Of a stretch of 11,276 nt of DNA, positions 9,001 through 11,276 are shown one piece after another (the first letter of the stretch is position 1; every line of letters starts with the position of its first letter). Origin of the DNA: a virus. Its lineage: Duplodnaviria > Heunggongvirae > Uroviricota > Caudoviricetes. Position numbers: made by a program. Location of the stretch: IMG/VR virus record IMGVR_UViG_2548876964_000017, positions 1 through 11,276 of that record; one strand, written 5' to 3'.

Positions 9001-11276
9001 TTGCCCGGCGCAGCTCGCGGTTAGCCACATGCAGCGATGGTAAAATCAGACCATCCGGATGCTTTCTGGTGAACGACGGCTGTGACTGCACTGTGACCGC
9101 CACACTTTCCGTTTTTATTTCTTCCTGTGTTTCCGCTTCCCCGACTGGTAACGCAACACCTGCTGGCTGAGGAAAGGCTTTACCATCCATTTCCGCTATG
9201 GATGCGGCTTTCGGCTCTGCCGGTAAATCAGCGCCCGGTATGCAGTACCGAAATTTACCGCCCTGATTCACGCGAATCAGACGCCCTTTGCTGATTGCCA
9301 TGGCCAGTGATGAATTCGCCCGGCGGGAGGTAATCCCGAACATCAGGGCCAGCTCATCCGCCGTTTGTGGGCCATGATGTTCAATCGCCTCAGTCAGCAT
9401 TTGCGCTGTCACTTTCGGTACCGGTGACACTGGTTCACTTTCACCAGCCTGAATCAGCCACCACATCGAACCCTTGTTATCCGCTTCACCACGGCGCTTC
9501 AGTTTCCACAGTTCGTTGACAGCATCTTCGCGGCTGATTCCAAGGCGCGATGCCACTACCTGTGAAGAGGCTTTTTTCAGTGCTTTCAGTGCGTCAAATA
9601 CAGTTTCCATTAAAACGTCCTCCAACAAAAATTACTTCACAACCCTCTGATTGCTGACATTTGGACGCCAGCTATCCCAGTTAAACGTCACCCACCGACC
9701 ACCGTTCATGGTCATGCGGTCCATAATCCTCTCACCAAGAAGCGTGCTCATTGCGGCATGATTCAGGTTTGTTAACATCCCGACACTGCACAGTGATGCT
9801 GTCCGGCGATCAATTATCTGGTGTAATACCACCTGCTCGTTTTTCGTCTCCCGCTGAACGCCTATTTCATCCAGGACCAGCAAATCAACACTGCAAAGCT
9901 CCTGTAAAAATTTTTCCCCGGATTTGCCGTTGTCGTAGCTGTCATGCAACACGCTCATGACATCAGACACGGTGACGATAATCACGCTGCGCCCCTTCGC
10001 CATCAGCCGGTTACCCATCGCCGCTGCAAGGTGATTTTTCCCGGTGCCGGTTTTACCGCTGAACACAAAATTCGTGCACCCGGTCATCAGTTCGTCAGCT
10101 ATGGATTTGGCCTGGCTCAGCGCGTATTTTTGCCCGTCGTTCTGCACCTGATAATTCGCAAACGAGCATTTGCTGTGCAGAGGCTGGATGCCCGAACGAT
10201 TCAGGATTTTTTCCACCCGCAACTGGTGATTCTGGCGGTTAATCTCCTCGCTGCGTTTTCGTCCTTCAACAAGTTGCCATTCCCGCCACTCCTCCACCGT
10301 CCGGTACGGTGGAACCGACGCCTGTGGTGCAAGTCTGCGAATACGTTCAAGAACCCCGGCTGCCGCAATGTTTTTCATGCCACATCACCCCCTGAATCCC
10401 GGCGGAATTTCGGTATCCGGTTCAGAAATATGATTCACACAACGCTGGTTGTTCGTGCCGCTTACCGGGAGCAACCAGGGGTTTTCAAAATTCCGGTCCG
10501 GCCCAAAAAACGTCGTCGCTCGCTGAACAAATTCCGTTCCCGTTTTCCCGGTAGCCGCCAGGTATCTTGCGTAACGCCTCACACCATCCAGTATGGCCTC
10601 TGGTGGCACCCCCTCGCGTAATCTGGCCTTCCAGGCACTGAAAGCGGATTTCTTCGGGTTTGCCCCAGCACGCAACGGGTATTCCCGCCAGACCTGTTCG
10701 AACACATCCGGATAATCCACTCGTCCCACAGGCTGCCCGGTGTTTTCCGGGACTACCCGATCGGCTTCCCGCTGAATGGCGGAATCGGCTTCAGGCTGCT
10801 GCAGTTGGTGTGATTGCTCCGGCCTTGCGGTCATCACCTGCTGCACAGCGCCCGAATCGGCTTTCAGCGCATACGCTGAATCGGCTTCCGGTGTCGTGCC
10901 TGCTGGCTGACCAGGATTGACGGTCTGAACATCCCCTGCCTGGTTCGTGGCGTTTTTTACGCCATGGACCATAGTGTTTTGATCTTCTTGATCTGTATCT
11001 TTATCTGTATCTTTATCTGTCGTGACTCGTCGTGACATGTGCGTGACATTTCGTGACGCGCCGTGACAATCGCCATTTTGTTCCCGCTTTCTTTCCCTCT
11101 CTCGCTGCGCCCTCTTGCGCTCTGCAGGAGATTTTGCGGTTTGCGAAATATTGCCGTTGTCCTCTTTAAGCACCTGGCGTTTTTCCCATCCAGTGATTAA
11201 ATCACCATCAAGTACCCGCCCCTGCATCGTCTGCAAAATTGAATCAGGTGTTTGGCCTGACCGTTCCGCTGATCAC

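What the first reader, a model, noticed from the sequence alone, without database searches (positions are those of the whole stretch)
10991..11068. Iteron-like direct repeats inside the DnaT-like initiator gene: candidate replication origin
Five GTGAC-core repeats are spaced at 10-11 bp, about one helical turn, so all would face the same side of the DNA. They follow 2.5 tandem copies of a 12-bp unit, and the whole block encodes a low-complexity linker (…VTHMSRRVTTDKDTDKDTD…). The arrangement resembles lambda, where ori iterons sit inside gene O, and suggests the origin lies within this initiator. Alternatively the true start codon is downstream (ATG 10972) and the repeats are a non-coding origin upstream of a shorter gene.
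Basis: partly seen in the sequence, partly recalled or inferred. Interest (0 to 1): 0.5.

Follow-up and report, generated by a model that had tools for sequence, protein, structure and literature searches.

The report
Replication origin inside prophage initiator gene
The repeats are real and are very probably the initiator-binding sites and melting region of a phage replication origin that lies inside the initiator's own gene, as in lambda and SPP1; this has not been described for this protein family, and the copy in this window is cut off at its 5' end.

Summary
Observation confirmed. CGTGAC occurs five times at 11021-11067 with 10/11/10/10-bp spacing. Next to it are 2.9 copies of a 12-bp unit (10986-11020) in the least stable duplex of the replication module.

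Interpretation largely supported by comparison, not by experiment. The gene is a 356-aa phage replisome-organizer-type initiator. In 81 non-redundant relatives (E. coli, Pseudomonas, Aeromonas, metagenomes) the same layout recurs. There are two clusters of a hexamer phased at 10-11 bp, at fixed gene positions. The same motif is usually used in both clusters of a gene, but it differs between subfamilies (GTCACG or CGAACGC). An A/T-rich GATAAA/GATACA tract abuts the second cluster.

The motif falls in all three reading frames. Third codon positions of the tract are A/T-biased (84% against 47%). The constraint is therefore on the DNA.

Two corrections. The window holds only the second cluster; the first lies in the N-domain codons that are missing here. 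The window's gene is truncated at 11246, where it is joined to a tyrS fragment, so this copy cannot make its own initiator. "DnaT-like" rests only on the last ~24 residues.

Verdict: a new member of a known kind.

The parts
11021..11067 (-). Iteron cluster B: five GTCACG cores (CGTGAC on the + strand) at 11021, 11031, 11042, 11052 and 11062, phased at 10/11 bp. They encode CHGASRNVTHMSRRVT in three different reading frames.
   Evidence: The cluster sits at the same gene position in relatives, and its motif co-varies with cluster A.
10965..11020 (-). A/T-rich, purine-strand-biased tract that abuts the iterons. It includes the 12-bp unit GATAAAGATACA x2.9 (10986-11020) and encodes TDKDTDKDTDQEDQN. 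Proposed DNA-unwinding element; it also encodes the linker between the protein's domains.
   Evidence: GC is 0.325. It is the least stable 40-mer of the replication module. In relatives the lowest-GC 30-mer starts 6-11 nt after the last cluster-B core. Third-codon positions are A/T-biased, 589/704 against 1769/3735. Unit copy number varies in frame.
10941..10971 (.). Imperfect inverted repeat (13-nt arms, 85% complementary, 5-nt gap) immediately beyond the A/T-rich tract. Its role is unknown, and it may or may not be part of the origin.
   Evidence: I1. Its conservation in relatives was not tested.
10385..11246 (-). 5'-truncated replisome-organizer-type initiator gene. It corresponds to residues ~70-356 of the 356-aa protein WP_001262366.1. 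The mechanical ORF is 10385-11236. The first ~69 residues, and with them iteron cluster A, are missing.
   Evidence: phrog_3729 'replication initiation protein' matches at profile positions 74-356 of 356. The full-length gene is seen in E. coli O111 and phage Tritos. Homology ends at 11246.
9632..10378 (-). DnaC-like helicase-loader gene (248 aa) directly downstream of the initiator gene.
   Evidence: Pfam IstB_IS21 and Bac_DnaA. NCBIfam PRK12377 at 507.8 bits, above its cut-off; DnaC equivalog at 298 bits. phrog_50.
11241..11276 (+). 36-nt fragment of tyrS (tyrosyl-tRNA synthetase; ...NQVFGLTVPLIT...). It is joined to the initiator gene at a shared GAATCA (11241-11246) and brings an in-frame TGA on the - strand at 11273-11275.
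   Evidence: The junction is absent from 5,426 complete E. coli genomes and from all loci fetched.

Best explanation
The block at 10965-11067 is the distal half of a phage replication origin embedded in the gene of its own initiator.

In the intact element the 356-aa initiator has three parts: an N-terminal helical, probably winged-helix, domain; a disordered linker; and a C-terminal domain with a DnaT-like tail.

The proposed mechanism is inferred. The initiator binds one GTCACG core per helical turn, on one face of the DNA, at two arrays. Cluster A has four cores inside the N-domain codons. Cluster B has five cores, about 230 bp downstream, in the linker codons. The resulting nucleoprotein complex melts the adjacent GATAAAGATACA tract. 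The neighbouring DnaC-like loader then delivers host DnaB to the opened DNA. In distant relatives a phage DnaB-type helicase gene lies nearby instead.

What is shown: the repeats, their phasing, their conservation and co-variation across the family, the DNA-level bias of the A/T tract, and the gene context. What is inferred: binding by the initiator, melting, and helicase loading.

In this window the initiator gene is truncated and cluster A is lost. This copy could fire only if a co-resident prophage supplied the same initiator in trans.
For: (1) The phased hexamers are far beyond chance.

(2) The 10/11-nt period is not a multiple of 3, so GTCACG is read in all three frames as CH, SR and VT. 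The nearby protein repeats GAATCGGCTTC are spaced 24/72/24 nt, in frame.

(3) The full-length gene has nine GTCAC on the coding strand, all in the two clusters (gene nt 129-160 and 389-430), plus one inverted copy.

(4) In 143 unique and 81 non-redundant family genes, two phased clusters recur at the same positions. The motif is GTCACG in one subfamily and CGAACGC or GTAACGC in others. The top phased 6-mers of regions A and B, found independently, agree in 58 of 68 genes. The permuted mean is 28.6 and the maximum 42.

(5) Among near-identical copies, all point substitutions in cluster B fall in the spacers and none in the cores.

(6) The A/T-rich tract abuts the last cluster-B core throughout the family. 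This holds at gene G+C of 0.40-0.65. Third positions of D/K/T/E codons there are 84% A/T, against 47% elsewhere (odds ratio 5.7).

(7) The tract is the least stable duplex of the replication module.

(8) The context fits: a DnaC-like loader gene lies downstream, and DnaB-type helicase genes lie next to distant homologues.

(9) The N-domain model is confident (pLDDT above 90 for residues 11-90) and shows a helix-helix-hairpin arrangement. Clusters B and the A/T tract fall in the disordered linker.

(10) There is precedent. SPP1 gp38 binds direct repeats of oriL inside gene 38, next to an AT-rich DUE (PMC6316719). Gene 38 shows the same order: N-domain, direct repeats, A/T-rich tandem repeat. 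The lambda origin lies in the middle of gene O (PMC7466680).
Against: No member of this family has a mapped origin or a demonstrated DNA-binding activity, so all the evidence is comparative.

Only two or three motif classes exist, and the sequences are related by descent. The co-variation and codon statistics are therefore not phylogenetically independent.

The Pfam match to Phage_rep_org_N is below threshold (E = 0.13). The fold search gave no significant hit.

The residues that track the motif class are mostly those encoded by the motif copies themselves, so protein specificity could not be tested independently.

About 11 of 81 genes have a phased cluster only in region B.

Binding could serve autoregulation or copy control rather than, or as well as, initiation.
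Confidence: 0.75

Rival explanations
1. The repeats are by-products of a low-complexity protein linker that expanded by slippage. They have no function as DNA.
For: The block encodes a disordered linker (pLDDT about 50). The 12-bp unit is a multiple of 3, and its copy number varies in frame.
Against: The 10/11-nt period puts the core in all three frames. The cores are invariant while the spacers change. The same hexamer recurs in a second cluster inside a folded domain and changes in concert with it. Third codon positions of the tract are A/T-biased in genes of up to 65% G+C.
Confidence: 0.04
2. The hexamer arrays are bound by the initiator, or by another phage protein, for regulation and not as the site of initiation. 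Possible roles are autorepression, a transcriptional roadblock, handcuffing or copy control, or a fork barrier such as gp38 bound at SPP1 oriR. The true origin would lie elsewhere.
For: Two separated arrays about 200-230 bp apart would suit looping or handcuffing. SPP1 gp38 bound at oriR is proposed to stall forks (PMC6316719). Iterons in plasmids serve both initiation and control.
Against: Cluster B is always abutted by the least stable, A/T-biased tract, which a purely regulatory site does not need. No other iteron-like array was seen in the window or in the immunity-to-replication region of the full-length loci that were read. The layout matches the proven origins in lambda O and SPP1 gene 38.
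Confidence: 0.12
3. The repeats are recognition sites for a different machinery: a pac/cos-type packaging site, a partition centromere, or a host factor such as DnaA or IHF.
For: Phased short repeats inside genes occur at pac sites of some phages (own knowledge).
Against: The repeats lie in the replication gene, not in a terminase gene. No partition genes lie nearby. There is no DnaA box within 500 bp. The motif changes with the initiator subfamily across hosts from E. coli to Pseudomonas, which a host factor or an unlinked protein would not explain.
Confidence: 0.04
4. The A/T-rich 12-bp repeat is mainly a recombination joint between exchangeable N- and C-terminal modules of initiator genes. 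It would be conserved because it promotes mosaicism, not because it melts.
For: The identical stretch ATAAAGATACAGATAAAGAT follows unrelated N-domains: this family, Rac YdaU (DUF1376) and two further families. Different C-terminal modules follow it in E. coli relatives.
Against: This does not exclude a DUE role; in lambda the origin also coincides with the domain joint (own knowledge). The A/T bias and the position next to the iterons hold in distant hosts, where the sequence is not identical (GATACA, GAGACA or GATTCA variants). That argues for a compositional and functional constraint rather than a shared recombination site.
Confidence: 0.05

Closest known systems
Bacillus phage SPP1 oriL within gene 38 (replisome organizer G38P/gp38)
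   Same: The origin lies inside the initiator's own gene. Direct repeats bound by the initiator sit next to an AT-rich DUE (PMC6316719). In gene 38 the order is N-domain, direct repeats (L442 540-588), then an A/T-rich tandem repeat with GC 0.20 (596-627) that encodes a low-complexity N/D linker, then the C-domain. The window's gene has the same order. NCBI and Pfam naming link both proteins to 'phage replisome organizer'.
   Different: Sequence similarity to Phage_rep_org_N is below threshold (E = 0.13). The repeats here are hexamer cores, one per helical turn, in two arrays within a single gene; SPP1 has two origins 13 kb apart. The partner here is a DnaC-like AAA+ loader rather than gp39/gp40.
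Lambdoid ori-lambda in the middle of gene O (lambda, 933W, P27)
   Same: Iterons plus an adjacent AT-rich tract lie inside the initiator gene, at the joint between the origin-binding N-domain and the loader-binding C-domain. Iteron number varies between phages, 4 against 6 (PMC7466680). The host, the lambdoid early-right operon context and a loader gene directly downstream are the same.
   Different: There is no sequence relation to O; no Pfam O-family hit was found. Lambda iterons are ~18-19-bp units with internal symmetry (own knowledge); here a 6-bp core repeats every 10-11 bp, all in one orientation. There is a second array upstream within the folded domain. The loader is DnaC-like, not P.
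Rac prophage oriJ / ydaU-ydaV module of E. coli K-12
   Same: The operon position is the same (ydaS/ydaT-like, initiator, DnaC-like loader, DUF1627). YdaU has the same C-terminal ...PD..IPPGFRG tail. It has the identical ATAAAGATACAGATAAAGAT tract, preceded by its own repeats TGTTCAAACA. Rac has an experimentally active origin, oriJ (PMC3945230).
   Different: The YdaU N-domain is DUF1376 and is unrelated. Its repeats differ in sequence and arrangement: two direct and one inverted, not 10-bp phased. I could not read the papers that map oriJ, so its exact position relative to ydaU was not verified here.
SaPI (Staphylococcus aureus pathogenicity island) origins
   Same: Short hexanucleotide iterons in two sets associated with an AT-rich region (own knowledge, not checked here).
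   Different: The SaPI ori lies next to, not inside, the rep gene, and its initiator is a helicase. There is no sequence relation.

Membership tests
Iteron-type replication origin embedded in its initiator gene (lambda O / SPP1 gene 38 kind) | Three or more direct repeats of one motif, regularly spaced, within the initiator ORF | tested here: met
   Five CGTGAC at 10/11-bp spacing inside the ORF. There are nine in the full-length gene.
Iteron-type replication origin embedded in its initiator gene (lambda O / SPP1 gene 38 kind) | An A/T-rich, easily melted tract directly flanking the repeats | tested here: met
   GC 0.325. Least stable 40-mer of the module. Position conserved in relatives. Third-codon A/T bias.
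Iteron-type replication origin embedded in its initiator gene (lambda O / SPP1 gene 38 kind) | Repeat sequence co-varies with the initiator (specificity pairing) | tested here: met
   The GTCACG and CGAACGC/GTAACGC subfamilies use the same motif in both clusters of a gene. Caveat: there are few independent classes, and the class-linked residues are themselves encoded by the motif copies.
Iteron-type replication origin embedded in its initiator gene (lambda O / SPP1 gene 38 kind) | Initiator binds the repeats, and the fragment supports initiator-dependent replication | not testable with these tools
   This needs footprinting or EMSA and an ori-cloning assay. No paper on this family was found.
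Phage replisome organizer, N-terminal domain (Pfam PF09681 Phage_rep_org_N) | Match to the Pfam model at or above the gathering score (23.3 bits) | tested here: not met
   The full-length orthologue scores 12.7 bits, E = 0.13, although residues 5-122 align to model positions 1-118 of 121. The window's truncated ORF gives no Pfam hit. NCBI names close relatives 'phage replisome organizer'.
Phage replisome organizer, N-terminal domain (Pfam PF09681 Phage_rep_org_N) | Winged-helix-type DNA-binding fold | tested here: inconclusive
   The AF2 model is confident for residues 11-90 and shows helices followed by a beta-hairpin. The Foldseek top list consists of CAP, GntR, MarR and Rrf2 winged-helix proteins, but all have E > 0.1.
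DnaT (primosomal protein I) / DnaT-like ssDNA-binding domain | Match to the DnaT family model over the C-terminal ssDNA-binding domain | tested here: not met
   The NCBIfam DnaT equivalog scores 18.4 bits against a cut-off of 201. Only residues 260-283 match, to model positions 156-179. PDB DnaT chains match only the last 21-24 residues, E = 0.02-0.07. No Pfam DnaT hit at E <= 1.
PHROG 3729 'replication initiation protein' | Full-length match to the family profile | tested here: met
   E = 5.8e-202. Residues 1-283 of the window ORF match profile positions 74-356 of 356, so the window copy lacks the first 73 positions.
DnaA-box (oriC-type) origin | Cluster of TTATNCACA boxes next to the DUE | tested here: not met
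   The nearest box with at most one mismatch is at 10431. The window count is no more than chance.

The most novel reading that the evidence does not exclude
The origin and the initiator may be physically interlocked. Cluster A (and an inverted core at gene nt 193) is the very DNA that encodes residues 43-56 and 65-66. These residues form the end of a helix, a loop, and the start of the putative recognition helix of the DNA-binding domain. They are the residues that differ most between the GTCACG and CGAACGC subfamilies. That would be a built-in route to new, mutually incompatible origin/initiator specificities. In addition, the GATAAAGATACA tract may be a portable unwinding-element, linker and recombination joint shared by at least four unrelated initiator N-domains, including Rac YdaU/oriJ.
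Probability: 0.15. Interest if true: 0.7.

Novelty: new member of a known kind. Interest (0 to 1): 0.45.

Why it matters
This initiator type is widespread. DNA matching the initiator and loader region occurs in 5,109 of 5,426 complete E. coli genomes. In 561 genomes the match covers at least 80% of the query, and those with any match hold a median of one and up to six places. It occurs in EHEC O111 prophages and in Pseudomonas, Aeromonas and Ralstonia phages. Its origin has not been described.

A defined origin gives a testable minimal replicon. It also predicts which co-resident prophages can cross-activate each other, namely those with the same hexamer class. It explains why the linker region is a mosaic joint. 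The conserved GATAAA/GATACA tract offers a sequence signature for finding such origins in unannotated phage genomes.

For annotation, the result shows that the low-complexity linker is dual-coded. It also shows that the gene in this window is a truncated remnant.

Tried and rejected
(1) Source of the window. No complete E. coli genome or species-representative genome carries the junction at 11241-11246. The tail alone matched tyrS in many Enterobacterales. I could not tell whether the junction is a real deletion or rearrangement, or an assembly chimera.

(2) A first related-loci scan with the full protein returned only 98-100% identical copies. These were useful for copy-number variation but not for co-variation. 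Distant DNA came from the look-up of encoding contigs and from scans seeded with distant homologues.

(3) Literature. A search for 'oriJ' as a whole word returned mostly the author name Orij. Potrykus 2000, on oriJ plasmids, is not held. Llarena 2021, on non-lambdoid Stx phage replication regions, mentions neither DnaT, DnaC, replisome organizers nor repeats. No paper describing GTCACG iterons in this family was found.

(4) The fold search of the N-domain against the PDB gave no significant match.

(5) I tried to find specificity-determining residues by mutual information with the cluster-B motif class. The top columns are those encoded by the motif copies themselves, so the test cannot separate cause from coding overlap.

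(6) A DnaA-box origin was considered and rejected.

(7) The GAATCGGCTTC repeats at 10758-10888 were considered as further binding sites. They were rejected as in-frame protein repeats (spacing 24/72/24, not above chance as a motif).
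Full report
**Observation**

On the + strand CGTGAC starts at 11021, 11031, 11042, 11052 and 11062, with spacings of 10, 11, 10 and 10 bp.
- The window holds 12 CGTGAC in all, against 4.5 +/- 2.1 in dinucleotide-preserving shuffles.
- Three phased copies in a row occur three times here and never in 200 shuffles.
- TRF reports a 12-bp unit (TCTTTATCTGTA) x2.9 at 10986-11020 and a 10-bp period x4.9 at 11019-11068.

All genes of the window are on the - strand. There the block reads GTCACG x5, then GATAAAGATACA x~3, and translates to CHGASRNVTHMSRRVTTDKDTDKDTDQED.

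**Context**

The window is the early-right/late-regulatory part of a lambdoid prophage.
- The genes identified are Q antiterminator, RusA, DUF968, DUF551, DUF1627 and a 248-aa DnaC-like loader at 9632-10378.
- The ORF 10385-11236 carries the repeats. It matches PHROG 3729 'replication initiation protein' at E = 5.8e-202, but only to profile positions 74-356 of 356.
- Full-length 356-aa genes are found in E. coli O111:H- 11128 (WP_001262366.1) and in phages Tritos and Evi. They are annotated variously as replisome organiser, replication protein O or primosomal protein I.

**The window's gene is truncated**

- Homology of the window to all of these genes stops at 11246.
- The last 36 nt (11241-11276) are a piece of tyrS, joined at a shared GAATCA.
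- The junction brings an in-frame stop at 11273-11275.
- The junction occurs in none of 5,426 complete E. coli genomes, nor in any locus fetched.
- The window's gene therefore lacks its first ~69 codons. I cannot tell whether this reflects a real rearrangement or an assembly artefact.

**The full structure**

In the intact gene (1071 nt) GTCAC occurs nine times on the coding strand and nowhere else in that orientation.
- Cluster A lies at gene nt 129, 139, 149 and 160.
- Cluster B, the finding, lies at nt 389, 399, 409, 420 and 430.
- One inverted copy lies at nt 193.
- Cluster A sits in the codons for ASRNVTRGHIDVT of the N-terminal domain and is outside the window.
- The period is 10/11 nt, so the core is read in all three frames, as CH, SR and VT.

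By contrast, the GAATCGGCTTC repeats further down the gene (10758, 10782, 10854, 10878) are spaced 24/72/24 nt. They are ordinary in-frame protein repeats (EADSA).

**Close relatives**

I examined 78 near-identical IMG/VR copies.
- The 12-bp unit varies in number, always in frame (gene 1071, 1083 or 1095 nt).
- Every point substitution in cluster B lies in a spacer and none in a core.
- An E. coli variant (P0018/L105) has six cores in cluster A through a 21-nt insertion. That is two iterons, or seven codons, so the frame is kept.
- Another variant (L329) has six cores in cluster B.

**Distant relatives**

A protein search with residues 1-130 found relatives down to about 40% identity. Their DNA was fetched. 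From 143 unique 5' gene segments I derived 81 non-redundant ones.
- Nearly all have two clusters of a short motif phased at 10/11 bp at the same gene positions (A about nt 129-165, B about nt 340-460) and in the same orientation.
- The motif is GTCACG in the E. coli/Pseudomonas/Aeromonas subfamily. It is CGAACGC or GTAACGC in others.
- The top phased 6-mers of region A and of region B were determined independently. They share a 5-mer in 58 of 68 genes. The permuted mean is 28.6 and the maximum 42 in 2000 permutations.
- Only the hexamer is conserved within each ~10.5-bp unit; the flanks are variable.
- Eleven of the 81 genes have a phased cluster only in region B.
- Caveat: there are only two or three motif classes, and the sequences share ancestry. 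These figures are therefore not independent tests.

**The A/T-rich tract**

- In the window GC drops to 0.325 at 10965-11024, against about 0.6 elsewhere in the gene.
- The stretch 10977-11016 is the least stable 40-bp duplex of the replication module (9632-11236). It ranks within the top 1% of the whole window.
- Across the family the lowest-GC 30-mer of the first 560 nt starts a median of 6-11 nt after the last cluster-B core.
- The tract is built of GATAAA, GATACA or GAGACA units, which encode DKDK, DTDT or ETET.
- D, K, T and E codons in the 36 nt after cluster B end in A or T in 589 of 704 cases. Elsewhere in the same genes the figure is 1769 of 3735. The odds ratio is 5.7, in genes whose overall G+C ranges from 0.40 to 0.65.
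- The constraint is thus on the DNA and not only on the linker peptide.

The exact 18-mer AAAGATACAGATAAAGAT also follows quite different repeats in genes with unrelated N-domains. These are Rac YdaU (DUF1376; TGTTCAAACA repeats) and two further families (L402, L377). Rac has an experimentally active origin, oriJ (PMC3945230), but I could not read the mapping papers.

**The protein**

An AlphaFold model of the N-terminal 203 residues, built on 49 aligned sequences, is confident for residues 11-90 (pLDDT above 90).
- It shows helices at 4-14, 16-25, 29-45, 56-63 and 67-77, followed by a beta-hairpin at 78-88.
- Cluster A encodes residues 43-55, the end of a helix and a loop.
- Cluster B and the A/T tract encode a disordered linker (residues 130-157).
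- Foldseek against the PDB gives no significant match. The top of the list consists of winged-helix DNA-binding proteins.
- Pfam Phage_rep_org_N aligns end to end but below threshold (E = 0.13).

The 'DnaT-like' label rests on the last ~24 residues (...SEPDTEIPPGFRG). These resemble the C-terminal tail of E. coli DnaT and of YdaU. The DnaT family model is not matched otherwise.

**Mechanism**

Shown: phased, conserved, co-varying hexamer arrays inside the initiator gene; an abutting DNA-level A/T-biased tract; a helicase-loader gene next door (or a DnaB-type helicase gene in distant relatives); and no DnaA boxes.

Inferred:
- The N-domain binds one core per helical turn on one face of the DNA.
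- The complex melts the adjacent tract.
- The loader delivers DnaB to the melted DNA.

The layout matches two proven cases. Lambda has iterons plus an AT-rich tract in the middle of gene O (PMC7466680). SPP1 gp38 binds direct repeats of oriL inside gene 38, next to an AT-rich DUE (PMC6316719). I checked SPP1 gene 38 directly. It shows an N-domain, direct repeats (L442 540-588), an A/T-rich 9-bp tandem repeat with GC 0.20 (596-627) that encodes NNNDNNENNDNK, and then the C-domain.

**Rival explanations**

- A pure protein-slippage origin of the repeats is contradicted by the frame-independence, the core/spacer pattern, the second cluster and the codon bias.
- A purely regulatory role (autorepression, handcuffing, fork barrier) cannot be excluded. 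It may well coexist with initiation, but it does not explain the obligatory unstable tract.
- Packaging, partition or host-factor sites fit neither the location nor the co-variation with the initiator subfamily.
- A role of the tract as a recombination joint between modules is likely true as well. It does not compete with a DUE role.

It is not supported. Orthologues are one ORF through the block, and indels keep the frame.

**Consequences for this window**

With the N-domain codons and cluster A gone, this copy cannot make a functional initiator. Cluster B plus the tract might still respond to the same initiator from another prophage. E. coli genomes carry up to six places matching this initiator and loader region.

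**Novelty**

An origin inside the initiator gene, made of iterons and a DUE, is a classical arrangement. For this family I found no description, and none of the isolated phages that carry it is a replication model. I rate it a new member of a known kind.

Unusual details are:
- the one-hexamer-per-turn arrays;
- the two clusters within one gene, one of them inside the folded DNA-binding domain;
- the widely shared GATAAA/GATACA tract.

The most novel reading concerns the residues encoded by cluster A and the inverted core (residues 45-55 and 65-66). These are exactly the residues that track the motif class. They may themselves read the iteron, which would couple site and reader in one stretch of DNA. 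This reading is not excluded, but it could not be tested here.

Noticed in passing
window 11241-11276 (junction at 11241-11246): The window ends in a 36-nt fragment of tyrS, fused to the truncated initiator gene at a 6-bp GAATCA microhomology. The junction is absent from all complete E. coli genomes searched. It may be a real deletion or rearrangement, or an assembly chimera.
   Followed up: partly
L003 5690-5735 (- strand; E. coli O111 11128), outside the window: A second cluster of four GTCAC(G) cores at 10/10/11-bp spacing lies inside the N-domain codons (ASRNVTRGHIDVT) of the intact gene. An inverted GTGAC lies 33 nt further on. The window lacks this half of the structure.
   Followed up: yes
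L017 3500-3625 (E. coli K-12 Rac ydaU): YdaU (DUF1376) has an unrelated N-domain. It carries TGTTCAAACA x2 plus an inverted copy, then the identical ATAAAGATACAGATAAAGAT tract, and ends in the same ...IPPGFRG tail. This is a candidate position for the known Rac origin oriJ. The same tract also follows other repeats in two further initiator families (L402, L377).
   Followed up: partly
window 10385-10460 (C-terminal ~24 codons of the initiator): The tail ...NHISEPDTEIPPGFRG closely resembles the C-terminal tail of host DnaT ([20 protein letters not shown]) and of YdaU. It may be a shared docking peptide for a host replication partner. The rest of DnaT is not matched.
   Followed up: partly
window 10758-10888: Four copies of GAATCGGCTTC-like sequence are spaced 24/72/24 nt and encode (P)EADSA repeats. 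They are in-frame protein repeats, unlike the iterons.
   Followed up: yes
window 10941-10971: An imperfect 13-nt inverted repeat lies just beyond the A/T-rich tract. From memory, lambda also has a palindrome beyond its AT-rich region. Conservation was not examined.
   Followed up: no
window 1196-1712 (- strand): Three phage-borne tRNA genes (Met-CAT 1637-1712, Arg-TCG 1553-1629, Arg-TCT 1463-1539) and an STnc100 sRNA (1196-1386).
   Followed up: no
window 6851-7025 (- strand): A sok antitoxin RNA (Rfam RF01794, 113.5 bits), which indicates a hok/sok-type toxin-antitoxin locus inside the prophage. Related loci annotate Hok/Gef or MokW genes at the corresponding place.
   Followed up: no
window 1742-3901 (- strand): A low-G+C insert with an AraC-family regulator (1742-2455) and a CAAX/Rce1-like protease (3077-3901), downstream of the Q antiterminator gene (4047-4427). 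It looks like a moron cargo region and contains the least stable duplexes of the window.
   Followed up: no
L098, L099, L102, L103 (distant homologues): In Pseudomonas and metagenomic relatives the initiator is short (150-230 aa, N-domain plus linker). It is followed closely by a DnaB-type helicase or primase-helicase gene instead of a DnaC-like loader. Some relatives (P0043, P0074) fuse the N-domain to an HNH nuclease domain.
   Followed up: partly
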